A DNA stretch of 64,000 nt from an uncultured Candidatus Saccharibacteria bacterium (GTDB lineage: Bacteria > Patescibacteriota > UBA1384 > JAMDBS01 > DAOVQR01), in contig CAYZSW010000001.1 of assembly GCA_964481135.1 (NCBI GenBank), positions 7,963 through 71,962 on the forward strand, written 5' to 3'. This document shows positions 1,545-62,571 of this stretch, piece after piece. The translations under genes were made by a program, and so were the position numbers. The notes beneath the pieces are model-generated. The model was not told the DNA's origin. It did no database searches and saw only the letters and a list, made by a program, of their open reading frames with translations. The stretch's first letter is position 1. Every line of letters begins with the position of its first letter.

Positions 1545-1654
1545 AAATTTCGAATTTCGAATATCGAAGTTCGAAACAATTTTCAAAAATTAAATAATTT
1601 ATTATTTGACCATTCAAATTTGTTTCGGTTTTCGGATTTCGTTTTTTCGAATTT
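1545..1654. repeat. two RPE-like repeat units between galT and ruvC
   Basis: 1545-1580 is a degenerate TTTCGAA heptamer array. 1611-1654 CATTCAAATTTGTTTCGGTTTTCGGATTTCG is ~29/31 identical to 2150-2180 inside ruvC. Confidence 0.7.
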
Positions 1655-3174: not shown

Positions 3175-3365
3175 TATCCTTATATATAAATTTTCTAATT
3201 GCACCCTGCCTCGACGGCAGGCGGGTAATTGACCTAATTATTCTAAATAAATTTCAATGACTTAAATCCTAATTAGACATTAGAACTCGGTTCTTGTTTA
3301 GGTTAATTAGAATAATTAGGAACTAATTAGGTTAATTAAGAGTATCTTTAGAATATATTATATTT
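3175..3365. repeat. repeated leader element (TAGGTTAATTA and AATTAG motifs plus a GC hairpin), copy A
   Basis: Shares TTAGAATAATTAGGTCAATTACC and a GC hairpin with 49120-49326. Confidence 0.5.
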
Positions 3366-6451: not shown

Positions 6452-6548
6452 ATCAGCCATTGAACAACAGGTCTCGCAATATTAATTAAAATAGTTAAAA
6501 AATACTATCTATTTGTATTTAGTAAATTGAAAGATTAATAAACCTTTA

Positions 6549-6689
6549 ATAAACTACCTCCCAGCAAGCTACGAGATATAAATTGAAATAATTTATACGA
6601 AGCAACCTGCCTGCCTGTCTGCTGATAAGGCAGGCAAGGCAGGGCTTCGGGGAATTCACCCACTTGTCCGCCTTTGGCGGATTAAATTT
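6549..6689 (+). promoter_or_regulatory. conserved upstream element, copy 1: ATAAACTACCTC..GCAAGCT (6549-6575) and GGAATTCACCCACTTGTCCGCCTTTGGCGGATTAAATTT (6651-6689), split by a GC-rich hairpin insert
   Basis: A near-identical ~65-nt sequence recurs at 16143-16206. Both copies end ~30 bp before a sigma70-like promoter. Confidence 0.4.
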
Positions 6690-6718
6690 ATTTTTTATAA
6701 ACACAATGTAAAGTTAAC

Positions 6719-6747
6719 TTGACATTTTTTTTACAGTATTTTATAAT
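6719..6747 (+). promoter_or_regulatory. sigma70-type promoter for dnaK (TTGACA, 17 bp, TATAAT)
   Basis: Perfect TTGACA and TATAAT hexamers with a 17-bp spacer, ~160 bp upstream of the dnaK start. Confidence 0.6.
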
Positions 6748-6904
6748 ACAATTACAAATAAAAATATTAATGATGCTAGTCTGCAAATTATACATAAATG
6801 ATCTGAACAAATGATCACAACACGGATATAAAAAATATGATTTAAATATATTCGTGGCAATCAAATAATAATTAGCAGCTTTCGCATTATATTAAGGAGT
6901 TTTT

Positions 6905-12660: not shown

Positions 12661-12715
12661 CATTTTTGACCTCATCAAATTGTAAAAAGAAAATTATTAA
12701 TCATGCACTCAGGAA

Positions 12716-12790
12716 GGGCCTGTAGCTCAGTGGTAGAGCAGGAGCCTTTTAAGCTCTGTGTCATGGGTTCAATCCCCATCAGGCCCTCCA
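12716..12790 (+). tRNA. tRNA-Lys (anticodon UUU), CCA encoded
   Basis: GGGCCTG/TA/GCTC-AGTGGTA-GAGC/A/GGAGC-CTTTTAA-GCTCT/GTGTC/ATGGG-TTCAATC-CCCAT/CAGGCCC/T/CCA. Complete cloverleaf with a TTCAATC T-loop and anticodon TTT. Confidence 0.9.
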
Positions 12791-12829
12791 GATACAAGCC
12801 CTTCCTGAGTGCATATATAAATAAATTAA

Positions 12830-13072
12830 GCCTTTTAAAGTCCGGCGGGGATAACTGTGCCAATCTGTATCATAGTTTCGACCTCGTGCCGTATACCACG
12901 ATTCTGTAATAACAGGATGTAATCCGTTTTACAGAAAGCTGTGCCCAGTATACGACGATTCTGTCATATTAGAACATAATTCAATTGACAGAAAGGAGTT
13001 TTACCGGGGAGTTATGCTGGTATTCCCATATGACCCTCCAAAAAATCACCAGAAATTTGGTGATTTTTTTAT
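12830..13072 (+). ncRNA. candidate small structured RNA: two tandem hairpin modules plus an intrinsic terminator
   Basis: Repeated units GTATAC(C/G)ACGATTCTGT(A/C)A..loop..T(T/G)ACAGAAAG, then CCGGGG..CCC, then the terminator at 13043-13072. No ORF, in a large noncoding gap. Confidence 0.3.
13043..13072 (+). terminator. rho-independent terminator
   Basis: AAAATCACCAGAAATTTGGTGATTTTTTTATT: 8-bp stem and a T run. Confidence 0.7.
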
Positions 13073-13223
13073 TGTATATATTGCCATATAAAAAATATAA
13101 TTAACATTTTGTCTAGTATTCTTCAACAGCTTTTCAAGCTCTTTCATATGCGATTTCAAAATCTACTTGCACTTTTTTAACTTCTTCTTTTGAGATTTTA
13201 TTTCTTTCATTCCATTGATTACC

Positions 13224-13295
13224 TTTTACTAACCTCCGGGGTTAGTAAAAGGTTTGAACCTGCAAATCTTTTGCAAACCCCGGAGGTTAGTAAAA
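13224..13295. repeat. 18-bp perfect inverted repeat (TTTTACTAACCTCCGGGG / CCCCGGAGGTTAGTAAAA) enclosing a 36-nt sub-hairpin
   Basis: Read directly. It sits in a ~400-bp stretch free of ORFs. Confidence 0.5.
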
Positions 13296-15995: not shown

Positions 15996-16142
15996 AATAA
16001 TGATTAATACCTAATATTATCTGTTTTATTATAGCACTACTCTGTATTTTTCCAAACTTTTAATGAACTTCCCTGTGGCTTAAAGACCACAGGGTTTTCC
16101 CCGGCCTCGCTCCGCGAAGCGGGGCGGGCTGGCGAAGGGTGA

Positions 16143-16206
16143 TAAACTACCTCACGGCAAGCTTCGCGGAATTCATCCACTTGTCCGCCTTGAGCAAATT
16201 AAATTT
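16143..16206 (+). promoter_or_regulatory. conserved upstream element, copy 2 (ATAAACTACCTCACGGCAAGCTTCGCGGAATTCATCCACTTGTCCGCCTTGAGCAAATTAAATTT)
   Basis: Matches the dnaK-upstream element. Followed ~20 bp later by TTTACA, 17 bp, ATAATA, and then the 16295 start. Confidence 0.4.
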
Positions 16207-16294
16207 TTAAAAGTTACTCTTTACAAATCACAAAAAAAACAGATAATATAAATAACATCTAATTGTATTTTAAAAATTAAAAGGAGGAAGTGTT

Positions 16295-17374
16295 ATGAAA
16301 AAGCTAGAACCGCTTTATATTGGAGATTTGGAGATAAAAACACCTATCATCCAAGGAGCAATGGGAGTGCAAATCTCAACTGCGCCACTTGCGGGTGCAG
16401 TCGCTGATTGTGGCGGAGCAGGCACTATTGCCAGTGTGGGTTTGGGGTATGGAACTAAAGAAAATGAAATGAATTTTGTTCAAGCTTCAAGAGATGGATT
16501 GATAAATCAATATCATAATGTAAGATTGATCACAAAAGGAATCGTTGGTGTTAATATAATGGTTGCTTTAAGTAATTATCGCGACTTAATACAAACTGCA
16601 GATTCTTTAGGATTTGATTTTATTGTTTCAGGAGCAGGATTACCTCTAGATTTACCAAGTATTGCTAAAAATACAAAAACATTAATACCCATAGTTTCTT
16701 CTGCACGAGCTGCGAAAATAATAATCCAAAAATGGATGAAACAAAATCATCCACCTGATGCGATAATCGTAGAAGGTCCCCTGGCAGGCGGACATCTGGG
16801 TTTCAAATCTGAATTTCTCAGGACCGATCTTAACGATGTTCTGGAGGAAATTGTCGGTGAGATCATAAAAGTTGCTCATCAGGCAGAGGAAGAAAACGGA
16901 ATTCATCTTCCGGTTATCGCTGCAGGCGGAGTTTTTGACGGCAAAGACATAGCCCGTTTTATAAAAATGGGAGCCAGCGGGGTACAGATTGCTACCCGGT
17001 TTGTTGCTACACGCGAATGCTCAGTGGCTGATGAGTTCAAACAGATATACCTTTCCGCATCCAACAGTGATGTTTTAATTATCGACAGCCCTGTGGGCAT
17101 GCCGGGAAGAGCTATCAGAACATCTTTCATCGATAAAGTTACAGGCGGTGAAAGAATTCCCTTCAAATGTAATTACAGATGCCTGAAAACCTGCAACCCT
17201 CATACAGCTCCATATTGCATTGCAAAGGCGCTTTTCGCTGCTGTTCGTGGCGACATGAACAATGCAGTGGTCTTTGCAGGAAGCAATGTCTCAAGGATAG
17301 ATAAAATTGTATCTGTAAAAGAGCTGATGAATGAACTCATTCAGGAAGCTAACAAAGAGTTATCAGCTGGTTAA
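16295..17374 (+). CDS. nitronate monooxygenase / FabK-like FMN-dependent oxidoreductase (NMO family)
   Basis: PIIQGAMG...ST and GGAGTIAS at the N-terminus, TIM-barrel FMN-binding pattern; 359 aa. The 3' two-thirds is visibly GC-richer than its surroundings. Confidence 0.6.
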   Translation: MKKLEPLYIGDLEIKTPIIQGAMGVQISTAPLAGAVADCGGAGTIASVGLGYGTKENEMNFVQASRDGLINQYHNVRLITKGIVGVNIMVALSNYRDLIQTADSLGFDFIVSGAGLPLDLPSIAKNTKTLIPIVSSARAAKIIIQKWMKQNHPPDAIIVEGPLAGGHLGFKSEFLRTDLNDVLEEIVGEIIKVAHQAEEENGIHLPVIAAGGVFDGKDIARFIKMGASGVQIATRFVATRECSVADEFKQIYLSASNSDVLIIDSPVGMPGRAIRTSFIDKVTGGERIPFKCNYRCLKTCNPHTAPYCIAKALFAAVRGDMNNAVVFAGSNVSRIDKIVSVKELMNELIQEANKELSAG

Positions 17375-35044: not shown

Positions 35045-35290
35045 AAAATCCGAAATACTAAACCCGAAATTTCTGCCCGCCGCTCAATCTCATCGAGAAA
35101 TAGGTGATTATTCCCCTTCTCGATATATGTTTCACCTCGGCAGGTGGGCAAAACAATATTGAAGCTCCGCGGGTTAAAAACCGCGGATTCCACTTAGGCG
35201 GAGCTGAAATCCGCCGTAGCGAAATCTTACCTTGCTTCATCCCCGGGCTAAAGCCCTGGAATTTCGCGAAGGCTGGATTAAAATTCTAAT
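35045..35290 (-). promoter_or_regulatory. GC-rich structured leader or candidate cis-regulatory RNA upstream of the GT4 gene
   Basis: ~250-nt island of much higher GC with nested perfect hairpins (CCGCGGTTTTTAACCCGCGG, GCTCCGC...GCGGAGC). No credible ORF. Confidence 0.3.
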
Positions 35291-35382
35291 ATACAATGTT
35301 CAAAACAAATGTTTAGGATTTTGTATTTTGTTCATTGAAATTTGTTTAAGATTTCAAAATTCGAAATTCAGATTTGAATGAT

Positions 35383-39966: not shown

Positions 39967-40031
39967 ATTTAGGTAGATTCAAGAATAATTGGGTTTGGCT
40001 TCATTCTCCCTCCGTTAAATAATTGATTAGG

Positions 40032-42230
40032 TTATTTTTTCTCCCAAATATCTTTTCTAAATATTAAGTATGCAAATCCGCCAGTCAATAAAATCGCAAG
40101 TAAAATATTAAACCAAAGCGCTGACCCCGTAGAAACTAAAGTACCTAAGCTAGAGCCATCTTTAATGCTTGTTGTAATTGAACAAGATTCTGTTGATACT
40201 TTTACTTCATCAGACTTCATAGATTTTTCACCTGCAGCATTATGAGCAATCACATAATAGCAGATTTCTACATCACAATTTAAACCAGTAAATACATAAC
40301 CGGTATCAGATGTTGATGTAATATATTTTCCAGTACAATCGAAAATATCATATCCTACGGCACCATCTACAGCATCCCATGTTAAAGTAGCCATACCTCC
40401 ACCGTTATAAACAAGCTCAATGTTTTCAGGTTTTTTGTCAGAAATATCCTGACCAGTTGAACACTTACCAGTGTTAACACTGGCTGTATTGCTAGGATTA
40501 GATTCCAATTCCTCATAACCAGCTGTTACATAATAACCGTAATTTGTTTCACAATTAAGTCCATCGATTACAAAACTCAAAGTATTCATATCAACTTGTG
40601 CTATCAACACTCCGCTTTCCGCGTTATAAATTCTATAATAACCAACACTGCTTCCTTCTAGTTTGTTCCATGCCAATTTTATTGAACTATTGGAAATCGG
40701 GGTGGCGGTTAGATTAATAGGTGATGGAGGGGGTGTCGGTGATACAGTTGGACTGGCCGTTGGACTAGATGTTGGGGTTAAAGTTGGAGAAGGTGTTGGG
40801 GTTATGCCACAATAAGTTTGCATACATTCTGTTCCATCTCCATATTGCGTACAATCAATTCTATATGCCCATTTAAAATAAACTGGTCCACCTGGAGTAT
40901 CAGTAGTCGCATCACACCCATAAACCTTTGTTCCTTCACATTTAAATTGACCTGATTCACATTCTGAGGGTGGAGTAACTGTTGGTGTCGGTGTTGGTGA
41001 CGAAGTTGGTGTCTCTGCTGGACAATTTAAATTTTGTGCTATCATTTCATTTGAATCGGCATATCTACCAGCACCAGTAGAGTTAACATATTTTGTCTGA
41101 ATTTTATAGGAAACATTATCATAACTTGGATAAAATTCTTCATGGGTTAGTGTAGATTCTTTATAAATAGTTGAATTGGTCGCAGACCACTGATTATTAG
41201 TTACAGATGATTTTACATAAGGCTGATAATAGTAAAAAGTGTATCCAGAGTAAGGAGTACCTTTTTGCCAACTGAGAGTATTTCTTTGTCTTCCAACTGT
41301 TGGATATCCACTAACACAAGTGGATTGAATTTTATTTAGAACAGGACTTTCATTGGCAGGAGTAGGAACTGGCGTAACACTTCCACATGAATTAGCGTAA
41401 GTTTCATAACTTCTATATGTTTTTCCATCGGCTTTATTTTTTACATATACTCGATAAGTGTAATTTGTAGATCCATCACTAAATGTATCTGTATGAGAAC
41501 ATTGTCCAGAAGAATTACATGGCCAAGTGGAAGTAATCGGTCTTTGATTAATTTGTGGACTACCAAGTGTAAATGTGCCACTCCCTGTTCTTCTCTGAAC
41601 TGTTACCCATTCGTATTTATCCCAAGGATTTGATCCTAAATTCCAAGTAAGTTGATTAGTTTTATTATTACAATTTTGATTTAAATTTAATGTAAAAGCA
41701 TTTATACATACATTTGGGTCAGTTGATGAAGTTGTACAGGTTGTACTTGGAGTTGTAGTAGGAGCGGGAGAAGTTGTAGGACTAACAGAACAAGATGCGA
41801 CCTGAACTGGACCATGTCTTTGACCTCCAGTACAATTACATTGAGCTGAAAAACTTCTTGAAAGAGAGTCTGCTGGTCCCCAGACACATTGTTGATCTCT
41901 TAATAAATTTTGGCATTGACTAATAGTTGACCATTCTGCGGAATTACCTAAACGAGTATAATAAGTACACTTACAGGCAGAAATCCCAATACCGGGGTTA
42001 ACTCTTAATGTGTCTGTTTGCATTCCGTTTGCACAAGTCGTTACAGCAGTCAAATTATTATTAGTAACAGTTCTAGTGGTACTCGCCCATAAACTAATTT
42101 TTCCTGTTTGATTGGCCCAAACTAGCGTTGCAAGTGAAAGAAAAAATATTCCTAAAACTATTACTAAGTAAGTCTTGCTCTTTTTAGTAGCAAATAATGG
42201 CTGATGCCAAATTGATTTTTTTTCTGACAT
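40032..42230 (-). CDS. large Cys-rich surface protein with Ser/Thr/Pro linkers and a C-terminal LVSTG-type cell-wall sorting signal
   Basis: Signal peptide, many Cys, TPTSSPTPTPT linkers, Ig/FN3-like repeats. C-terminus is LGTLVSTGSALWFNILLAILL...FRKDIWEKK. GC-richer than the backbone. Confidence 0.6.
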   Translation of the reverse strand: MSEKKSIWHQPLFATKKSKTYLVIVLGIFFLSLATLVWANQTGKISLWASTTRTVTNNNLTAVTTCANGMQTDTLRVNPGIGISACKCTYYTRLGNSAEWSTISQCQNLLRDQQCVWGPADSLSRSFSAQCNCTGGQRHGPVQVASCSVSPTTSPAPTTTPSTTCTTSSTDPNVCINAFTLNLNQNCNNKTNQLTWNLGSNPWDKYEWVTVQRRTGSGTFTLGSPQINQRPITSTWPCNSSGQCSHTDTFSDGSTNYTYRVYVKNKADGKTYRSYETYANSCGSVTPVPTPANESPVLNKIQSTCVSGYPTVGRQRNTLSWQKGTPYSGYTFYYYQPYVKSSVTNNQWSATNSTIYKESTLTHEEFYPSYDNVSYKIQTKYVNSTGAGRYADSNEMIAQNLNCPAETPTSSPTPTPTVTPPSECESGQFKCEGTKVYGCDATTDTPGGPVYFKWAYRIDCTQYGDGTECMQTYCGITPTPSPTLTPTSSPTASPTVSPTPPPSPINLTATPISNSSIKLAWNKLEGSSVGYYRIYNAESGVLIAQVDMNTLSFVIDGLNCETNYGYYVTAGYEELESNPSNTASVNTGKCSTGQDISDKKPENIELVYNGGGMATLTWDAVDGAVGYDIFDCTGKYITSTSDTGYVFTGLNCDVEICYYVIAHNAAGEKSMKSDEVKVSTESCSITTSIKDGSSLGTLVSTGSALWFNILLAILLTGGFAYLIFRKDIWEKK

Positions 42231-42697: not shown

Positions 42698-42775
42698 TAT
42701 TCTGCGTAATTATCTGCGTTTATCGGCTTCTACAATTTATTAAATCAAAAATATTAATATTTCACAAGTGGATAA

Positions 42776-43876
42776 CTATTTATTTTTTTTCCAAATATCA
42801 TCTCTAAACATTAAATAACCTATAGCCGAGGCCAGTAAAACTGCAAGTATAAGATTAAACCATAAAGAAGAACCTGTAGAAACTAGGGTTTTTAAATTAT
42901 TTAAACCAATCTCGCCTGAACTTATAGCATTAATATCGTCTTCGTTGTTGCTTTGATTCACACTAGTAATAACCTTTCCACCTGCCATATAAGTTCCGTC
43001 ATCTAAAAAACTATCATCCGACGAACCTTCTTTGCTCGTTTCAAAACCTAAATTATCCATAACCTTGTAATTAACTCTAATATCACAACCATTTAAAAAT
43101 GGAGTTAACCTGTTCGGAGAAAGGGTTTGTCCTAGCATGATTCCATCAAAATAATCTATTGGAGTAAATTCAATCACCGAATATGCTCCGGGCTGATTAG
43201 TACCTGCGTAATAAATATCACCATATTGTTGACAGTGTGCGTCGAGATCTAAATCTGGAATTTGATCAAAATCAAAACCTCTAGGTTTATTTTGAATTAC
43301 TCCATAATATGTATCGTATCTACCAGCATTATCTTGTTTATCCCCTTCTTTAGGAGTTGGAGCGTTGTGATAATTTACATCTGGCAAACGCCGATTCCCG
43401 ATTTTTGTTTTTATATTTTTAAAGTTTTTTGGATCATAAAAGTTTGGACTAATTCCTGCAAATATAAAATTCGGCAAGACATCAAGAGATGCGTTAATAT
43501 AATCCCATTTTCCGTTTTGTATACATTTTAAATATGGCGCCTTATAAACTAAATCCCCATCTATTTGGTGATAATCGAAATCTCCCATAGTGTAAGTAAC
43601 GGTATATGGTTGATTTTTTTCTAAATAAACAATTTCAGGTATTTCGACTACATCTTTTGCTAAATCAAAAAAACATTTTTCTGTAATCTTTTTGTTGTCT
43701 ACTATCATCTTTCCACTAATACATAAAGTACCTGGTGATTTATTTAAGCTAGCACTAATTTGTAGCAAATTTTTATGATTTAAATAAATTAAAACTGCAA
43801 AAAAAATTAATATTATTGATATCAAAACAAAACTAATAGTTTTAATTTTTTTATTTATTGGATTACTCACAATCAA
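42776..43876 (-). CDS. surface protein, paralogous C-terminal sorting signal
   Basis: Signal peptide. C-terminus is LKTLVSTGSSLWFNLILAVLL...FRDDIWKKNK. Confidence 0.55.
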   Translation of the reverse strand: MIVSNPINKKIKTISFVLISIILIFFAVLIYLNHKNLLQISASLNKSPGTLCISGKMIVDNKKITEKCFFDLAKDVVEIPEIVYLEKNQPYTVTYTMGDFDYHQIDGDLVYKAPYLKCIQNGKWDYINASLDVLPNFIFAGISPNFYDPKNFKNIKTKIGNRRLPDVNYHNAPTPKEGDKQDNAGRYDTYYGVIQNKPRGFDFDQIPDLDLDAHCQQYGDIYYAGTNQPGAYSVIEFTPIDYFDGIMLGQTLSPNRLTPFLNGCDIRVNYKVMDNLGFETSKEGSSDDSFLDDGTYMAGGKVITSVNQSNNEDDINAISSGEIGLNNLKTLVSTGSSLWFNLILAVLLASAIGYLMFRDDIWKKNK

Positions 43877-43915
43877 TCCTCCTGAATTATAAACCTCAAA
43901 ATAATTATTATATTA

Positions 43916-44494
43916 TTACTTTTTTCTTTTTTTCCAAATATCTTCTCTAAACATCAAATAGCCAATTGCCAGAGCAAGTAACACCGCAAGTACAAGATTA
44001 AACCACAAAGATGCGCCTGTAGAAATTAAAACAGCTGGATTTTTATGATAATCTGTTGGAAAATACAACTCTTCGTTTTCTAAATCCATTGGATCTGAGT
44101 ATATGGTTGGATAAGATATTGGGGAAATCTGTAGACAACAACAAGATTTACCCGCACCAAGAATTTGATCGTCTAAATAGCAATCTTCTGTTTGCCCAAT
44201 AGATATTTCCCCTTCTAGACAAATTTGCGGATCTTCTATAATTGGGTATTCTCTGCAAATTCCTGTTTCGTATCCCCTACTTAGACATTTTTCTTGACAA
44301 GTGTCGATAATAACAGTTGGCTGTGGAACTGGTGGGCTTGGGGTTGGAGTTTCCATAATAGGCACATACACATCAGCGGCAATTTTTAACTTTTGATTTG
44401 ACCCATACCAAATAATTACAGCTAAAAAAATTAAAAAAACACCTATTATAAAAAGCCAGGTCGTTTTAGTGTTATTTGAAAGTTTATTTTTCAA
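43916..44494 (-). CDS. small Pro/Cys-rich surface protein, paralogous C-terminal sorting signal
   Basis: TTG start after GGGAGGGG. C-terminus is AVLISTGASLWFNLVLAVLL...FREDIWKKRKK. Confidence 0.55.
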   Translation of the reverse strand: MKNKLSNNTKTTWLFIIGVFLIFLAVIIWYGSNQKLKIAADVYVPIMETPTPSPPVPQPTVIIDTCQEKCLSRGYETGICREYPIIEDPQICLEGEISIGQTEDCYLDDQILGAGKSCCCLQISPISYPTIYSDPMDLENEELYFPTDYHKNPAVLISTGASLWFNLVLAVLLALAIGYLMFREDIWKKRKK

Positions 44495-48001: not shown

Positions 48002-48134
48002 TGTCGGATGCCCCTCCCTGCACAGAACTACACAAATATGAACACGGATTATACACTAAAATTGATAGTTTCATCACAAGAGCAACTAATCAGTGTATTA
48101 TTTTGTGTTCCCGCCTGTGTGAATTTTGTGTGTT

Positions 48135-48596
48135 CTAATATATTTCTTCGATATTATTAATAATCAGAATTCCGCTTGCATTAAAAGTAGCTAAAGCTTC
48201 AACTTTACAGATGTATCTATTGTTATTAACACGGCTTACAATGTTTATGTTTTTTGGGTTATCCCCAGTTATATCTATTATAACACTTCCGTCATCAAAA
48301 ATTAAGTTTGTGCCAGCAAAAGATGGATCCCGCATAATTCTCAAAATGGATTCATCTATTGCTGATATTGCATTGTTGTAGGCCTCGTCAGATTTTTTTA
48401 AATTAAAACTCATATCAGTATCAATTAAAACATTTTGTAAAACAACAGTTACTGCCAACAAAGCAACGGCTAAAATTACCATAACAGCTACCATGGCAGA
48501 ACCCTTTTCACATACAGAACCACACAAAAATGAACACATATTTACACTCTTCTTATGTAACTTTAATTTATTTATTGATGGTAATTGATGTGTCAT
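48135..48596 (-). CDS. hypothetical membrane protein, possible minor pilin (PilX-like), start uncertain
   Basis: N-terminal hydrophobic helix but no canonical GFTLIE. An alternative start ~48494 (MVAVMVIL) follows an AAAAGGG RBS. The annotated start sits inside a CA-rich repeat. Confidence 0.35.
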   Translation of the reverse strand: MTHQLPSINKLKLHKKSVNMCSFLCGSVCEKGSAMVAVMVILAVALLAVTVVLQNVLIDTDMSFNLKKSDEAYNNAISAIDESILRIMRDPSFAGTNLIFDDGSVIIDITGDNPKNINIVSRVNNNRYICKVEALATFNASGILIINNIEEIY

Positions 48597-48624
48597 TTTG
48601 TGTTCCTATTTGTGTTGATTTGTG

Positions 48625-49119
48625 TTACTTAAGGTAGTATGTTGTTTCAAATTCCTGCGAAATATCACGCTTACCCTCAACCTCTCCAATAAAATTAATA
48701 TTTATTTTAATTTGTATACTAGGCCTGCCTCCGACATTGGCAATTTTACGAAATTCTAAACTTTCTACTTTAACTTGGTTTGAGGTAACATTATCAAAAT
48801 CACCGCTTTCTGATCGAATTAATGTACCCGATATCAAACCATAACTCACATCTCCAGCTATTAAATTATTTGTTGGGTTGTTATCGTTTGGCACATCGAC
48901 ACTACTTGCATTTTGCAAATCACGAATAATTAACTCTGTGACAAACCTACCATTTTTTTGAATTTCAAGTCGTGCAGTTTCTTCTTGAGAAAAATAACTG
49001 GCAGTAATTAATAAGTTTGTAATTATTAAAAGAATTATCGATAAAAGCCCCATATATATAATGGTTTCTATGAGGGTGAAACCACCTTCAAATTTTTTTC
49101 CACTTTTATATTTTTTCAT
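48625..49119 (-). CDS. pilin-like protein with prepilin-type N-terminal cleavage/methylation domain
   Basis: KFEGG / FTLIETIIYMGLLSIILLI. Confidence 0.65.
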   Translation of the reverse strand: MKKYKSGKKFEGGFTLIETIIYMGLLSIILLIITNLLITASYFSQEETARLEIQKNGRFVTELIIRDLQNASSVDVPNDNNPTNNLIAGDVSYGLISGTLIRSESGDFDNVTSNQVKVESLEFRKIANVGGRPSIQIKININFIGEVEGKRDISQEFETTYYLK

Positions 49120-49326
49120 AATTAAATAAAATTTCTAATTTTTCTAATTGATCTAATTATTCTAAACAAATACCAAACTATAATTTCTAATGTCTAAATG
49201 TATTTTCTCTTTTTTGTTATTGGTGTTTGGGTCATTTTTTAGGTTAATTACCTGCCCGCCATTAGCTATCGCTTCAAGCGATTAGCAGGCGGGGAAATTA
49301 GGTTAATTAGGTTAATTTCTACTCGC
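49120..49326. repeat. repeated leader element, copy B
   Basis: GAAATTAGGTTAATTAGGTTAATTTC, a CCTGCCCGCC...GGCGGG hairpin and TTAGAATAATTAGATCAATTAG, ending in CAATTAGAAAAATTAGAAATTT before an ATG. Confidence 0.5.
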
Positions 49327-51251
49327 TATGGTGAATAATTCACCGACACATCGTAAACAACCGGTGTTTTGCTATTCTCAAGTGTTGTTAAATATATTTT
49401 ATATTTTATATATCTTCCTAAAGAATGTGAAAGAGGAATTGCTTCTCCATCTGGATTGGTAAATCGCGTTGCTTCTGTTCCGTCTGGTCCTACAAAATTC
49501 CATGTTGCATTATCAGTATTAGTAGCAATTTGGAATTCTACATTTGTTACTCCGGGATCGATCAATTCTGTCCAAAAAATCCGATTAAATGAAACTTCAT
49601 CACCTGCATCAAAAGTACTTGATATATATTGCCCAGACGGAAAGTAACCAGTTTCTGCGATAGCTGAAAGTCGAAACATTGTATCTTGATTATTAAATAC
49701 ATTCCAATTTGTACCGGCATTATTGCTTTCTGTATATCTTGCATCTAAACCCAGATAATTAATATCATTGTCTGGGCTTCGGTCTAAATTTTCTGCGTGT
49801 TCTATGTGATATGATCGATTATGTGCAGTTCCAGGTGATTTTAGATAAAATCTATATTGCCTTCCTTCTATAAAAGCAATTTTTGGGTCAAGTGAAATTT
49901 CATGTAGTTGATAATCCATAGTAATATCTGTTCTTGTAACAAAAATTTCGTTAAATAAAATAGTATTGGTTGTCATATCTTCAATAACTAAATATAAATC
50001 ATCTTGAGGCTGAGCACCAACACTTTTTTTAACATAAATTGCCATTCTATTAAAAAACTCTGTACCCTCTTTGTAAGTAAAAATTTCTCCTTTATAAAAA
50101 TTTCCGTAAACATCTTTGTCTCGTGCTTCATGATATGGATTTCCTTCGGCTTCTGGGTTGCTATCAGTAAATAATAAAATATAAACAGGCGTATTATTAA
50201 CATCTGACCAGTTTGCGCCACCATTACTAGTCCAGCGGATCATAAGATTTAAATCATCTGCACTAGTTAAAGGCACAACCAAGTTTAAAGGATTTAAAGT
50301 TCTAAATATAATTGATCTTCCGGCATTTATTTGACCTGAATTATGCTCTATTACTAGGTGATAAATATTACCAGCTGTAATAGAAACATTTTCATTTAAA
50401 TTAAGTTCATGCCAGCCAGTGTTATTAGTTTGAAAATCTTTATAACCCTCATTATTACCTCCCAACCAATTACCACTTGGACTACCGTTATTATCTGATT
50501 GCAGTCCATATCTATATGTAGGAGTTTGATTTTGATGAGTAGAAGAAATGTAAATTCTAAGCGCTCTTACCTCTTTTGTATTTTGAGCAGTAAAACGAAA
50601 AGAAACTTTTTTACTTGAATTATCTAATGCATCTGTTTGGCTAGTACCAAAAACAGAGAATCTGTTACCAACTTGCTTGCCTTCACCTTGTCCATAAGCA
50701 AGCTTAATTTCACCACCTTGATCGTTTGTAACTTCTGTATCATTTACAGTCCCATCTATAAAATCATTATAAGTTGTTTCAATCCAATTAGCATTGTTTT
50801 GATAACGAGTCAGATATATTTCCTTAGATATAGATAAATTACGGGGTTTTTGCCAAGAAACAGAAATAATAAATTTTTTTGTCGATGGGTCCTCAATTCC
50901 ACTTTCTGATATTTCTCCGCTAACCGCATTACGGTAAACTGATTCGATAGAGATGCTTCTAGTAAAATTATCATCGATATTTTCTACACCATCTGCTAAA
51001 TTCCACACTCCGTTATTATTTATAATACGAGCGGGATATGTATGATAAACTAAGTCATTCCACGACCGCTCGTGTATTGAATAAAGAGCATTAACTGCTT
51101 CTTGAACATATTCTTCTGCTTGAGTTTGTTTTAATGAATTAAACTGAGCTTGTGAAATATCTACAAAAAGACCAATAACTGAACTAATTATTACACTAGC
51201 AATAGCAGTAGCAATAATAAGCTCAATTAGAATTTGACCTTTATTTGACAC
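49326..51251 (-). CDS. large (~640 aa) pilin-like protein, candidate tip or PilY1/PilV-like adhesin subunit
   Basis: The ORF-track N-terminal extension translates a CA-rich leader. A GTG ~51251 gives MSNKG / QILIELIIATAIASVII, a classic short prepilin leader, followed by 600 aa of beta-rich sequence. Confidence 0.5.
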   Translation of the reverse strand: MSNKGQILIELIIATAIASVIISSVIGLFVDISQAQFNSLKQTQAEEYVQEAVNALYSIHERSWNDLVYHTYPARIINNNGVWNLADGVENIDDNFTRSISIESVYRNAVSGEISESGIEDPSTKKFIISVSWQKPRNLSISKEIYLTRYQNNANWIETTYNDFIDGTVNDTEVTNDQGGEIKLAYGQGEGKQVGNRFSVFGTSQTDALDNSSKKVSFRFTAQNTKEVRALRIYISSTHQNQTPTYRYGLQSDNNGSPSGNWLGGNNEGYKDFQTNNTGWHELNLNENVSITAGNIYHLVIEHNSGQINAGRSIIFRTLNPLNLVVPLTSADDLNLMIRWTSNGGANWSDVNNTPVYILLFTDSNPEAEGNPYHEARDKDVYGNFYKGEIFTYKEGTEFFNRMAIYVKKSVGAQPQDDLYLVIEDMTTNTILFNEIFVTRTDITMDYQLHEISLDPKIAFIEGRQYRFYLKSPGTAHNRSYHIEHAENLDRSPDNDINYLGLDARYTESNNAGTNWNVFNNQDTMFRLSAIAETGYFPSGQYISSTFDAGDEVSFNRIFWTELIDPGVTNVEFQIATNTDNATWNFVGPDGTEATRFTNPDGEAIPLSHSLGRYIKYKIYLTTLENSKTPVVYDVSVNYSP

Positions 51252-51333
51252 AGAATTACACAAATTGGAACACAAATTACCACACCTATTAAGTTGATGT
51301 GTATTTCTGTGTTCTGTTTTGTGTTTTTCTGTG

Positions 51334-51858
51334 TTAATTAACATCAATTACTCCCAACTTATTAATTGTAAAATTTCTAGTTTCGCCGGAGCTTAACTCA
51401 GATAATGAAAAATTTTTATTTTGCTCATCGTAATTCCTTACATTACCAAAAACTTTCTCAAAGACAATTGTCGAATTATCTGGTAAATTTGAATCTAATG
51501 ATAAATTGTCTGGTAAATTTACATTGATATTATAATTATCACTCGGGTTATAAATAATTCCCCGATATAAAACAATTTTATTTTCAACTGAATCAAAATA
51601 TATGCTAAAATTTTCGCCCGACTCAGCTGTATCGCAATTTTGGGTACACATTCTACTCATTGCCTGATTCTGTGCCTGATATATAGTAGATAATATTTGA
51701 GTCGAAAAAGAATCCAAACTGTTGGTTCGTTGAAAATTTAAATAAGAAACCCACGATCCAGCTAAAATAATACCAAAAATTCCTATCGTCACTAATAGTT
51801 CAATTAAAGTAAAACCTTTTTTAACTTGTAGCTGGTAGCTTTTTAGCTTATTAGACAA
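51334..51858 (-). CDS. pilin-like protein (prepilin-type N-terminal domain)
   Basis: TTG start after GGAGGGGC. KKG / FTLIELLVTIGIFGIILA. Confidence 0.65.
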   Translation of the reverse strand: MSNKLKSYQLQVKKGFTLIELLVTIGIFGIILAGSWVSYLNFQRTNSLDSFSTQILSTIYQAQNQAMSRMCTQNCDTAESGENFSIYFDSVENKIVLYRGIIYNPSDNYNINVNLPDNLSLDSNLPDNSTIVFEKVFGNVRNYDEQNKNFSLSELSSGETRNFTINKLGVIDVN

Positions 51859-51948
51859 TGCCCCTCCGTTTACTAGCTTATTAGTTTGTAGCCTTTTAAC
51901 TTATTAGAGAAAAATATCTAAGAAGCTAATTAGCTAATTCCTAAGAAG

Positions 51949-52407
51949 CTATTTTAAATGCTCTTTAATCTTTTCTACAACTTGATTTGGTGTAAGGTTT
52001 GCTTTTACTAAATAATCATTTGCGCCAAGTTTTTTTGCTCTATCAATATCAGTTTGCTGGCCAAGATTAGAAAATACTACTACTGGTTTTTTGGCGTTCG
52101 GCCAACTACTGGCACGAAGTTTTTCTAATATTTCAAATCCATCTACTTTTGGAAGCATCAGGTCTAAAAGTATAATACTATAATCATTTTTCTCTAATTT
52201 TTCTAAAGCTTGTTGTCCATCAAGAGCATTATCAACTTCAAAACCTTCCATTGAACATTTTGTTGAATACATTTTTACTAGTAATTCATCGTCTTCTATA
52301 ATTAATAATTTACCACCATTTTTTTCCAATTGTGCTGATTGATTAGCTGTATTGTCTGCTGGCTGTGGTTGACCCTGAGGTTGAACTGGTATTTGTTGAT
52401 TTTGCAT
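51949..52407 (-). CDS. single-domain response regulator (CheY-like receiver only) with a Q/P-rich N-terminal tail
   Basis: REC-domain motifs (LLIIEDD, DLMLP, receiver lysine region). Start chosen at MQNQQ after GAAAGGAG. Confidence 0.7.
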   Translation of the reverse strand: MQNQQIPVQPQGQPQPADNTANQSAQLEKNGGKLLIIEDDELLVKMYSTKCSMEGFEVDNALDGQQALEKLEKNDYSIILLDLMLPKVDGFEILEKLRASSWPNAKKPVVVFSNLGQQTDIDRAKKLGANDYLVKANLTPNQVVEKIKEHLK

Positions 52408-52456
52408 AATTATACTCCTTTCTTTCACACAGAACTACACAAATAGGAATACAAAT

Positions 52457-52882
52457 TTACACTTTAGTTAAAAACGGTTTTCTATCATTGGTGTAAATGA
52501 TTCTTTTGACATATAGTTTTAGTGTAGAAAAATTTACTAAATAACCTATTTCATATTTACTATTTCTTAAATAATGATAAAGTTGTATTTCGTCTTGTTT
52601 AGTAGTGAATCTTGACGATTTCAATTCTATAATAATTTTATTATCGATAATTACATCTGGTTTATAACTTCCTACTTTTTTACCAGTCTGATTAGAATAA
52701 ATACTAATTAATTTTTCTTTTTCAATTTTTATTTGTTTATTTGTTAAATATTCAATCAATAAATTCTGATAAATTGATTCTTTGTGACCAGGTCCGTATT
52801 CCTTTCTTATTTCGAAAAAACATCCTTGAACAATATAGCTTAATTCCTTGTAAAGGAACAGCTTCTTATCTGGTGCGTTCAT
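52457..52882 (-). CDS. GxxExxY family protein
   Basis: [29 protein letters not shown]. Start MNAPDKK follows AGGAACACAA. Flanked by ~20-bp imperfect inverted repeats at 52425-52465 and 52870-52920. Confidence 0.7.
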
Positions 52883-53023
52883 TTGTGTTCCTGTTTGTGT
52901 TGTTTTGTGTTGTAACCAACGGTAATGTAAAGCTAAAATTGGAGCCATGCCCTTCGCGACTCTCTACCCATATTTTACCACCACATCCTTCAACTATCAA
53001 TCGGGAAATGTAAAGGCCTAAAC

Positions 53024-62377: not shown

Positions 62378-62571
62378 GCCCCTCCCTGTAAACAAATATA
62401 CACAAATCAGAATACAAACCAACACGCTGAAATTGATATTTTGATCAGTAAAATAATATTACTAGTGTGTTATTTTATTTTCGCATCTGCGTATATTTGT
62501 ATTATAGAGTCTATTTCATTATATCAAAAATTAGGATATTTAGATATTGTTAATTGTCTAATAATATTATT

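What the first reader, a model, noticed from the sequence alone, without database searches (positions are those of the whole stretch)
6549..6689. ~65-nt conserved element placed just upstream of the -35 box at two unrelated promoters (dnaK and the NMO-like gene)
The second copy spans 16143-16206. Both copies read ATAAACTACCTC(C/A)C(A/G)GCAAGCT(A/T)CG(A/C)G ... GGAATTCA(C/T)CCACTTGTCCGCCTT(T/G)(G/A)GC(G/A)(G/A)ATTAAATTT. Copy 1 carries a 75-bp GC-hairpin insert in the middle. Each ends ~30 bp before a good sigma70 promoter. It is not a CIRCE or HAIR heat-shock operator. Candidates are an activator-binding site or UP-element module, a transcribed leader RNA, or a small repeat family that inserts next to promoters.
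Basis: seen in the sequence. Interest (0 to 1): 0.5.

Follow-up and report, generated by a model that had tools for sequence, protein, structure and literature searches.

The report
Leftover transposon ends, not promoter elements
The two look-alike stretches upstream of dnaK and the NMO-like gene are decayed right ends of a TnpB-type (IS200/IS605 superfamily) jumping gene read on the opposite strand, so their position next to promoters is most likely incidental and the finding is ordinary.

Summary
The repeat is real. There are two copies, 6549-6689 and 16142-16206, about 87-91% identical over a 65-nt core, with a 76-nt difference in the middle. No shuffle of the window reproduced either half.

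The regulatory reading is not supported. Read on the minus strand, both copies end in a hairpin followed by GGTAGTTTAT. That is the invariant right-end terminus of a TnpB transposon family that I recovered from IMG/VR (about 100 distinct loci across two protein-guided scans). Copy 1 matches one such right end at 31 of 35 positions. The similarity between the two window copies stops exactly at that terminus.

A covariance model built only from viral right ends ranks copy 1 first in the window. It ranks the GC hairpin beside copy 2 (16063-16098) second.

The nearest available relatives lack the element upstream of dnaK and upstream of NMO. The distance from the core to the -35 box differs (29 against 13 nt). 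No tnpB gene, left end or further copy occurs in 84 kb.

Verdict: these are transposon right-end / guide-RNA-scaffold relics, a new member of a known kind, of low interest. Two things stay open: whether they are still used in trans, and which copy is ancestral.

The parts
6549..6689 (-). Copy 1: relic of the right end / omega-RNA 3' module of a TnpB-type IS (141 nt). Read on the minus strand it is: hairpin TCCGCC-AAA-GGCGGA, a linker, a GC-rich hairpin, an AT-rich linker, the terminal hairpin, then GGTAGTTTAT.
   Evidence: 31 of 35 positions identical to the right end of the viral TnpB element L190, score 48 against a shuffle mean of 14.2 (sd 2.2; none of 2000 shuffles reached it). Best hit of covariance model R1 in the window, 6549-6595(-), 17.6 bits, E 0.49.
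6549..6558 (-). Terminal motif GGTAGTTTAT, the family-invariant right-end terminus (the transposon-encoded-motif region). Similarity to copy 2 stops here.
   Evidence: TAGTTTA is identical in all 42 aligned viral right ends and the G before it in at least 90%. GGTAGTTTAY occurs only twice in the window, at the ends of the two copies.
6555..6578 (-). Terminal hairpin TATCTC-GTAGCTTGCTGG-GAGGTA, with the AGCTTGCT-type loop also seen in the right ends of L190, L188 and L270-L273.
   Evidence: The family hairpin shows compensatory changes at 6 of 8 predicted pairs.
6598..6649 (.). GC-rich hairpin CGAAGC...GCTTCG inside the 76-nt segment that copy 2 lacks. It is either an insertion in copy 1 or the stretch deleted from copy 2.
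   Evidence: Direct repeats CGAAGC and CGTAGC flank the segment (read directly from the sequence). Two independent Logan assemblies break at 6602.
6666..6682 (+). Hairpin GTCCGCCTTTGGCGGAT followed by a T-rich tail. On the + strand it is the only terminator-like site after grpE. On the minus strand it sits where the penultimate stem-loop of the transposon end would be.
   Evidence: Architecture compared with the L270-clade right ends. Terminator function is inferred, not shown.
16142..16206 (-). Copy 2: shorter relic of the same module (65 nt), ending in GAGGTAGTTTAT. Its penultimate hairpin has decayed (GGCGGA has become GAGCAAA on the + strand).
   Evidence: 20 of 22 positions identical to the L190 right end, score 34 against a shuffle mean of 12.7 (none of 2000 shuffles reached it). 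nhmmer right-end profile hit at 16143-16162(-), E 9.1.
16063..16141 (-). GC-rich block made of hairpin B and hairpin A. It is probably a second, more diverged right-end-like module that abuts copy 2: GCCCGCCCCGC-TTC-GCGGAGCGAGGC, then CGGGGAAAACC, then CTGTGGTCTTTAAGCCACAG, then GGAAGTTCAT.
   Evidence: Second-best R1 hit in the window, 16063-16098(-), 14.8 bits, E 1.5. The loop GTCTTTAAGC resembles the family loop GTCTTTAGC. Plain sequence alignment is not significant. This assignment is tentative.
6719..6747 (+). dnaK promoter, TTGACA-17-TATAAT. This is context only and not part of the repeat.
   Evidence: The promoter-proximal motif AATGTAAAGTT.ACTT.ACA is conserved in relative L051, which lacks the repeat.
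16220..16247 (+). Promoter of the NMO-like gene, TTTACA-16-GATAAT. This is context only.
16028..16055 (-). Divergent promoter for the PfkB-AdoHcyase operon, TTGGAA-16-TG-TATAAT. The whole GC block at 16063-16206 lies between the two divergent promoters.
   Evidence: Gene content.

Best explanation
The two copies are remnants of the right end (RE) of an IS200/IS605-superfamily transposon of the tnpB-only kind (IS1341-like). They lie on the minus strand, so their outer terminus points away from dnaK and from the NMO-like gene.

In intact family members, the last roughly 60 nt hold one or two stem-loops followed by the invariant GGTAGTTTAY. By analogy with characterised IS200/IS605 elements, this stretch serves two purposes. 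It is the subterminal hairpin and cleavage region used for single-strand 'peel-and-paste' transposition. It is also the 3' end of the TnpB guide-RNA (omega RNA) scaffold, which reads out into the flanking DNA.

In this window only that terminal module survives. It occurs at two intergenic sites, and probably a third time as the adjacent block 16063-16141.

What is shown: homology of the termini, and coincidence of the repeat boundary with the IS terminus.

What is inferred:
- The elements arrived by transposition into tolerated intergenic DNA.
- The rest of each element was lost.
- The copies are now inert, apart from the incidental use of the copy 1 hairpin and T tract as the grpE terminator.
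- Their position upstream of promoters is a by-product of where intergenic DNA exists in a genome that is about 88% coding.
For: 1. The 5' half pattern hit only one phage lineage in IMG/VR (two contigs). There it lies at the very end of a 362-aa gene's downstream region. That gene is a TnpB: Pfam Cas12f1-like_TNB and OrfB_IS605, and NCBIfam guided_TnpB at 168 and 189 bits against a cut-off of 100.

2. Two protein-guided scans each returned 80 TnpB loci, some being the same or near-identical elements. In the clade nearest L190 all but two of the listed distinct right ends finish with a covarying hairpin and GGTAGTTTAY, after which the sequences diverge. In the second, more distant clade many end in variants such as GGTAGTTGAC. 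6 of 8 hairpin pairs show compensatory changes.

3. Copy 1 aligns with the L190 RE at 31 of 35 positions, and copy 2 at 20 of 22. None of 2000 shuffles reached either score.

4. GGTAGTTTAY occurs only at the two copy ends in the window. The similarity between the copies ends exactly there.

5. Covariance model R1, built without any window sequence, ranks copy 1 first and hairpin A beside copy 2 second among 128 kb searched.

6. The core has the same two-hairpin layout as the L270-clade REs.

7. The element is absent at the orthologous dnaK and NMO upstream regions of the nearest relatives.

8. The spacing to the -35 box is not constant.

9. There is no Rfam match.
Against: - No tnpB, tnpA or left end occurs near the copies, nor anywhere in 84 kb of this genome.
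- Both copies share the same inner boundary. That is unexpected for two independent truncations. It hints at a short derivative that was itself copied, or at selection on the retained part.
- The covariance-model E-values are weak on their own (0.49 and 1.5). Their weight comes from where the hits fall and from the exact terminal motif.
- The L190 match was found with a pattern taken from the copies, so 22 of the 35 aligned positions are not independent evidence.
- Homology of the inner 40 nt is only architectural. An nhmmer profile of family left ends gives its best window hit on the + strand at 6651-6696 (E 0.37). I could not explain that hit.
- The genome-wide copy number is unknown.
Confidence: 0.75

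Rival explanations
1. The copies are still-active gene-less derivatives. Either they are PATE-like mini-elements, or they are orphan omega-RNA scaffolds transcribed on the minus strand and used in trans by a TnpB or TnpA encoded elsewhere in the genome.
For: - Both copies share the same inner boundary and keep the two-stem-loop module plus terminus.
- The terminal hairpin pairs better on the minus strand, through G-U pairs. One pair differs on both sides between the two copies yet stays paired (read directly).
- Gene-less elements that resemble PATEs, often encode omega RNAs and would need a TnpB supplied in trans are described for Geobacillus stearothermophilus (PMC10055086).
Against: - No left end or TTCAT-flanked left boundary is detectable.
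- Copy 2 has lost the penultimate hairpin and part of the terminal one.
- 65 nt is short for both ends of an IS605-type element and for a complete omega-RNA scaffold.
- No TnpB occurs in 84 kb.
- There are only two copies in 84 kb.
Confidence: 0.15
2. The core is a pair of paralogous small-RNA genes on the + strand. The conserved TAAACT would be the -10 box and the 3' hairpin with its T tract the terminator.
For: - Copy 1 has TTGAAA-17-TAAACT at 6527-6555 and a terminator-like hairpin at 6666-6682.
- Copy 2 has TGaTAAACT, which resembles an extended -10 box (read).
- On the + strand, conservation runs from the putative -10 box to the T tract.
Against: - The 'TAAACT' is fully explained as the reverse complement of the invariant IS terminus.
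- Copy 2 has no terminator hairpin.
- The 73-nt core does not fold better than shuffles, z = -0.96 on the + strand.
- There is no Rfam hit.
- The element is absent in relatives.
Confidence: 0.05
3. The core is a protein-binding regulatory module (activator site or UP element) shared by the dnaK and NMO promoters.
For: Both copies lie upstream of predicted sigma-70 promoters and in the same orientation relative to the downstream gene.
Against: - The distance from the core to the -35 box is 29 nt at one locus and 13 nt at the other.
- A 76-nt segment splits the core in copy 1.
- There is no dyad or direct-repeat symmetry typical of operators.
- The element is not conserved at the orthologous promoters of relatives, although the dnaK promoter-proximal palindrome is conserved.
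- The terminal 30-35 nt of copy 1 and about 22 nt of copy 2 are homologous to a transposon end.
Confidence: 0.03

Closest known systems
Right end (RE) and omega-RNA 3' scaffold of IS200/IS605-superfamily tnpB-only elements (IS1341-like). The comparison set is the IMG/VR TnpB family L190-L355.
   Same: - A subterminal hairpin followed by the invariant GGTAGTTTAY at the element boundary.
- An AGCTTGCT-type loop, as in L190, L188 and L270-L273.
- A two-hairpin layout, as in the L270 clade.
- Flanks that diverge immediately after the terminus.
   Different: - There is no adjacent tnpB and no left end.
- Only the last 65-141 nt remain.
- The sequence has adapted to a 30% GC genome.
- Copy 1 carries an extra GC hairpin not seen in the viral elements.
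PATEs (palindrome-associated transposable elements), the gene-less IS200/IS605 derivatives (PMC10055086, PMC3119063)
   Same: Short, gene-less, intergenic, built from IS605-type end hairpins, and able to carry omega-RNA sequence.
   Different: A PATE has both a left and a right end. No left end or TTCAT target motif was found here.
Other small bacterial intergenic repeats: REP/BIME, BOX, Correia, ERIC and Rickettsia palindromic elements. This comparison is from my own knowledge.
   Same: GC-rich hairpin modules in intergenic DNA, modular length variation, and occasional overlap with terminators or promoters.
   Different: Those families are defined by their own consensus sequences and, for some, by terminal inverted repeats or RAYT transposases. 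None of these was found here, and the terminus matches a TnpB-type IS instead.
TldR-type domesticated TnpB with guide RNAs acting as transcription factors (PMC10705468; title and abstract only)
   Same: A guide-RNA scaffold derived from an IS end, located close to promoters.
   Different: There is no TnpB or TldR gene nearby, no evidence of transcription, and the scaffold is truncated.

Membership tests
IS200/IS605-superfamily (TnpB-type) transposon right end | Subterminal imperfect-palindrome hairpin a few nt inside the end | tested here: met
   Copy 1 is the best R1 hit in the window and matches the L190 RE at 31 of 35 positions. In copy 2 the hairpin is degraded and forms only with G-U pairs.
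IS200/IS605-superfamily (TnpB-type) transposon right end | Family-specific conserved terminal motif at the exact element boundary (here GGTAGTTTAY) | tested here: met
   Both copies end in GGTAGTTTAT. These are the only two occurrences in the window. TAGTTTA is invariant in 42 viral right ends. The similarity between the copies stops there.
IS200/IS605-superfamily (TnpB-type) transposon right end | Adjacent tnpB (or tnpA) gene upstream of the right end | tested here: not met
   tblastn of the viral TnpB against the window and 20 kb of extra flank gave nothing below E = 1.8. The copies are therefore called relics or derivatives, not intact elements.
IS200/IS605-superfamily (TnpB-type) transposon right end | Matching left end with the target motif (TTCAT in this family) | tested here: not met
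   Covariance model R2 of the left end gives no hit at the copies. nhmmer gives only weak hits, E 0.37-0.5, in inconsistent orientation.
IS200/IS605-superfamily (TnpB-type) transposon right end | Several copies, or intact master copies, in the same genome | not testable with these tools
   The source genome is absent from the DNA-searchable collections. Only 84 kb could be read.
PATE (gene-less IS200/IS605 derivative) | Both left-end and right-end hairpins present, with no gene between them | tested here: not met
   The right end is present and no left end was found.
Omega RNA (TnpB guide RNA) gene | Transcribed scaffold that ends at the right end and continues into a flank-derived guide, with a cognate TnpB | not testable with these tools
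   No expression data are available. No TnpB occurs in 84 kb. No Rfam model exists for this family's omega RNA.
UP element / class I activator site | Fixed position and helical phase relative to the -35 box | tested here: not met
   29 nt at one locus against 13 nt at the other.
UP element / class I activator site | Conservation at orthologous promoters | tested here: not met
   Absent in L051 (dnaK) and in L059 (NMO).
Any curated RNA family (Rfam 15) | Covariance-model score at or above the gathering threshold | tested here: not met
   The best hit was E 0.018, far below the gathering score and unrelated.

The most novel reading that the evidence does not exclude
The terminal two-stem-loop module is not debris. 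It would be a retained, minus-strand-transcribed orphan guide-RNA scaffold, or a right-end-only mini-element, that a TnpB or TldR-like protein encoded elsewhere uses in trans. Its flank-derived guides read into the grpE 3' flank and, for the block at 16063-16141, into the -35 region of the PfkB-AdoHcyase promoter. That would link a transposon-derived RNA to control of neighbouring genes in a reduced, probably CPR-type genome.
Probability: 0.07. Interest if true: 0.6.

Novelty: new member of a known kind. Interest (0 to 1): 0.22.

Why it matters
The result removes a tempting false lead: there is no shared 'stress promoter module' for dnaK and the NMO-like gene. It also gives a concrete annotation, TnpB-type IS right-end relics, in an AT-rich uncultured lineage with no close reference genome.

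As a by-product it documents a large phage-borne TnpB family. That family has sharply conserved ends: a TTCAT target, a left-end hairpin, and a right-end hairpin followed by GGTAGTTTAY. Its guide RNA has no Rfam model, which could help annotation of omega RNAs.

If the relics proved to be expressed and used in trans, they would be an example of orphan guide scaffolds. Nothing here shows that.

Tried and rejected
1. Rfam, at gathering thresholds and at permissive E-values on both loci: nothing relevant.

2. Exact 22-mer of the 3' half in public collections:
- Genome contigs gave 0 hits.
- Viral contigs gave 0 hits.
- Metagenome contigs gave 3 hits, all in unrelated contexts: one in GC-rich DNA with the look of coding sequence, and two copies of one non-repetitive locus. 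I treated these as chance matches.

3. A 15-mer in viral contigs: over 120 hits, too short to be specific; not examined.

4. Closest genomes via GrpE: the best is 44% identical, so there is no usable reference.

5. Looking for other copies as spurious ORFs:
- A six-frame chimeric query in the search for homologous proteins gave nothing at E <= 10.
- The 52-aa ORF over copy 1 against 1.84 billion representatives hit only unrelated tandem-repeat translations.

6. Similarity downstream of the core, to test the 'mobile promoter' idea: not significant. 289 of 500 shuffles scored as well or better.

7. Secondary structure of the bare 73-nt core: not better than shuffles on either strand.

8. The 'attL/attR of an island' idea: the 9.6 kb between the copies holds dnaK, dnaJ, a tRNA and AdoHcyase but no integrase. 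Rejected.

9. SAH-riboswitch-like leader for PfkB-AdoHcyase: no Rfam support, and the block lies upstream of the predicted minus-strand promoter.

10. Plasmid and phage blastn with both loci: nothing.

11. Left-end covariance model R2 and mixed-clade right-end model R3: uninformative, with AT-rich noise among the top hits.

12. Reading the core as a left end on the + strand: there is only a weak nhmmer hit, against a 10 of 10 terminal-motif match for the right-end reading. Left as unexplained.

Full report
**1. The observation**

The window is about 30% GC. The two flagged stretches stand out as GC-rich islands in AT-rich intergenic DNA.

- The 5' part, ATAAACTACCTCMCRGCAAGCT, occurs at 6549-6570 and 16142-16163.
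- The 3' part, GGAATTCAYCCACTTGTCCGCCTT, occurs at 6651-6674 and 16168-16191.
- Both are on the + strand, and no shuffled window gave a match.
- The repeat finder and blastn-short give 87-93% identity.
- Copy 1 is 141 nt (6549-6689) and copy 2 is 65 nt (16142-16206). The 76-nt difference lies in the middle.
- No further copy exists in the window, in 20 kb of extra flank from the same genome, or in the relatives' loci.

Copy 2 starts at 16142. The core ends 29 nt before the dnaK -35 box but only 13 nt before the NMO -35 box.

**2. Context**

- Copy 1 lies between the grpE stop codon (6451) and a perfect TTGACA-17-TATAAT promoter for dnaK (6719-6747).
- Its hairpin GTCCGCCTTTGGCGGAT with a T-rich tail is the only terminator-like site after grpE.
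- Copy 2 is the right-hand part of a 144-nt GC-rich block (16063-16206). This block sits between two divergent predicted promoters, one for PfkB-AdoHcyase on the minus strand and one for the NMO-like gene on the + strand.
- Contigs of the same strain from other assemblies are identical across both regions. Two independent Logan assemblies break at 6602, and two at 16117, in each case inside a GC hairpin.
- The genome has no close relative among GTDB representatives; the best GrpE match is 44% identical, and the top hits include Patescibacteria. Neither DNA-searchable collection holds it. Genome-wide counting was therefore impossible.

**3. Tests of the regulatory readings**

- No Rfam family matches.
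- The bare core does not fold better than shuffles.
- Similarity does not extend into the promoters.
- In L051, the closest available dnaK locus (GrpE 53% identical, same MBL-ComEC-GrpE synteny), the promoter-proximal motif AATGTAAAGTTtACTTtACA is conserved but the element is missing.
- In L059, the closest NMO locus (82% identical, same NMO-ECF sigma synteny), it is also missing.
- Together with the 16-nt difference in spacing to the -35 box and the 76-nt split, this argues against an activator site, an UP element or a leader RNA.

**4. What it is**

A scan of IMG/VR with the 5' half pattern hit two near-identical phage contigs. In these the motif lies on the opposite strand. It sits about 40 nt downstream of a 362-aa gene whose C-terminus carries the Zn-ribbon and DADxNAAxNI motifs.

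That protein is a TnpB. Pfam gives Cas12f1-like_TNB and OrfB_IS605. NCBIfam guided_TnpB gives 168 bits, and 189 bits for a second clade member, against a cut-off of 100.

Protein-guided retrieval returned 80 related loci per scan in two scans, with some redundancy.

- In the clade nearest L190, all but two of the listed distinct right ends finish the same way...TTAGGTTTAAAGCC, then a hairpin, then GGTAGTTTAY. After that the sequences become unrelated. In the more distant second clade many ends are variants such as GGTAGTTGAC.
- The hairpin stem covaries. 6 of 8 predicted pairs show compensatory changes, and TAGTTTA is invariant in 42 aligned ends.
- Their left ends follow a TTCAT target and carry GGAAACCC-hairpin-GGGAGGAAT.

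This is the anatomy of IS200/IS605-superfamily elements. In those elements the right end also encodes the 3' part of the TnpB guide (omega) RNA, as described in PMC8612924 and PMC10055086.

**5. The link to the window**

- The conserved 5' end of the core, ATAAACTACC, is the reverse complement of GGTAGTTTAT.
- That 10-mer occurs only twice in the window, at the two copy ends.
- The similarity between the copies stops exactly there. The flanks are TAAAGG... and CACCC... on the minus strand.
- Read on the minus strand, copy 1 aligns with the L190 right end at 31 of 35 positions: TTTATATCTCGT-AGCTTGCTGGGAGGTAGTTTAT against TTAATACCTCGTCAGCTTGCTGCGAGGTAGTTTAT.
- Copy 2 aligns at 20 of 22 positions. 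None of 2000 shuffles reached either score.
- Part of that match was selected by the search pattern. The 12-13 positions beyond the pattern and the location at an IS terminus are independent evidence.
- Covariance model R1, built from 42 viral right ends only, ranks copy 1 first in the window (6549-6595 minus, 17.6 bits, E 0.49).
- R1 ranks hairpin A next to copy 2 second (16063-16098 minus, 14.8 bits, E 1.5; AAAACCCTGTGGTCTTTAAGCCACAGGGAAGTTCAT against the consensus AAAGCCCACAAGTCTTTAGCTTGTGGGTAGTTTAC).
- The E-values are weak alone. That the two best of 128,000 positions fall in the flagged loci is not.

**6. Architecture**

Right ends of the L270/L188 clade have a penultimate hairpin, then the linker CAGGGACAAAGCC, then the terminal hairpin, then GGTAGTT(T/G)AC. 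The tnpB reading frame ends inside the last hairpin (...MPRQLAAG*).

The window core has the same layout on the minus strand: TCCGCC-AAA-GGCGGA, then CAAGTGGGTGAATTCC, then the terminal hairpin with its AGCTTGC loop, then GGTAGTTTAT.

The block 16063-16141 (hairpins B and A) repeats this layout once more and abuts the terminus of copy 2. I read it as a second, older relic. Plain sequence alignment does not support this, so the assignment is tentative.

**7. Insertion or deletion?**

The 76-nt segment of copy 1 is flanked by CGAAGC and CGTAGC.

- For a deletion in copy 2: copy 1's proximal arm (ATCTCGT-AGCTTGC) matches the L190 hairpin arm (ACCTCGTCAGCTTGC) better than the distal arm does.
- For an insertion into the loop in copy 1: the distal arm TTCC(C/G)CG pairs with (T/C)G(G/T)GAGG in both copies, with one pair changed on both sides, and copy 2 already has the canonical two-hairpin spacing.

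I cannot decide between these.

**8. What is missing**

- No tnpB or tnpA gene occurs in 84 kb.
- No left end was found. Model R2 was uninformative. nhmmer's best left-end hit is 6651-6696 on the + strand at E 0.37, an orientation that does not fit, and I leave it unexplained.
- No copy-number information is available.
- The shared inner boundary of the two copies is not what two independent truncations would give. It leaves room for a short derivative that was itself propagated, or for retention of a useful part.

**9. Mechanism and verdict**

The best-supported account is as follows. A TnpB-type IS200/IS605-superfamily element, of a family that is abundant in IMG/VR contigs, entered intergenic DNA of this compact genome. 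About 88% of the window is coding and 7.4 kb is intergenic. All but its terminal hairpin module was then lost.

The module's position upstream of promoters is incidental. The only plausible present role is that copy 1's inner hairpin serves as the grpE terminator, which is inferred.

A still-active orphan guide-RNA or mini-element role is possible but unsupported. The finding is a new member of a known kind and of low interest.

Noticed in passing
window 6707-6724; L051 about 6845-6862: The palindrome TGTAAAG-N4-CTT(G/T)ACA overlaps the dnaK -35 box. It is conserved in L051, a relative whose GrpE is only 53% identical, as TGTAAAGTTTACTTTACA. A weaker version, TAAAAGTTACTCTTTACA, precedes the NMO-like gene at 16208-16225. 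It could be a heat-shock operator that is neither CIRCE nor HAIR.
   Followed up: partly
window 3195-3340 and 49130-49320: Two intergenic regions share three features: the motif TTAGGTTAATTA (3224-3237 minus, 3297-3309, 3325-3338, 49239-49250, 49298-49309), a GAYCTAATTATTCTAAA stretch, and a GC hairpin of the type CCTGCC..GGCAGGCGGG. At 49251-49297 the hairpin is flanked by the 12-nt direct repeat.
   Followed up: no
window 12840-13075: A GC-richer intergenic stretch downstream of the tRNA. It has an internal repeat (cgtataccacgattctgtaat and cagtatacgacgattctgtcat) and ends in a clean terminator (aaaaaatcaccagaaatttggtgattttttt). It may be a small RNA. Rfam gave no match at E <= 1.
   Followed up: partly
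window 12701-12816: The tRNA at 12716-12787 is enclosed by a 15-nt inverted repeat, GCACTCAGGAAGGGC ... GCCCTTCCTGAGTGC. This would form a long stem around the precursor.
   Followed up: no
window 13224-13295: A 33-nt inverted repeat, 91% complementary with 6 nt between the arms (TTTTACTAACCTCCGGGGTTAGTAAAAGG...). Only generic hairpin (miRNA precursor) matches appeared in Rfam.
   Followed up: partly
window 35135-35285: Another GC-rich intergenic island with several hairpins. One of them, CCAGGGCTTTAGCCCGGGG on the minus strand, has the CTTTAGC loop typical of the TnpB-family end hairpins (weak R3 hit at 35241-35259, E 3.7). It may be a further, more decayed IS-end relic.
   Followed up: partly
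window 16295-17374: The NMO-like gene is much GC-richer than its surroundings, reaching 64% in 50-nt windows. It has homologues 60-82% identical across several phyla. This suggests horizontal transfer or very strong conservation.
   Followed up: partly
window 48021-52910 and 62459-62503: Families of short dispersed and inverted repeats: CACAGAACTACACAAATATGAACAC and the T/G-rich TTTGTGTTCC... (D2, D4, D5, I1, I2). They lie between minus-strand genes.
   Followed up: no
window 40025-40138, 42772-42885, 43915-44028: Three copies of a 114-nt repeat, 67-82% identical (D1). They probably lie within paralogous genes with G/T-rich repetitive coding sequence.
   Followed up: no
window 1605-1641, 2144-2180, 35327-35363: Repeat TTTGAACATTCGAATTTGTTTCG..TTCGGATTTCG in three places, 76-86% identical (D7).
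   Followed up: no
L190-L355 (IMG/VR loci): A large TnpB family on IMG/VR contigs has sharply conserved ends. Insertion follows TTCAT. The left end is GGAAACCC-hairpin-GGGAGGAAT. The right end is TTAGGTTTAAAGCC-hairpin-GGTAGTTTAY. The LE and RE hairpins of one element often share the loop GTCTTTAGC. No Rfam model matches its guide-RNA region.
   Followed up: partly
window 6602 and 16117 (ends of L009/L011 and of L005/L006): Independent k=31 Logan assemblies of different runs break at the same base inside the GC hairpins. This may mean that these hairpin sequences recur elsewhere in the genome or community.
   Followed up: partly
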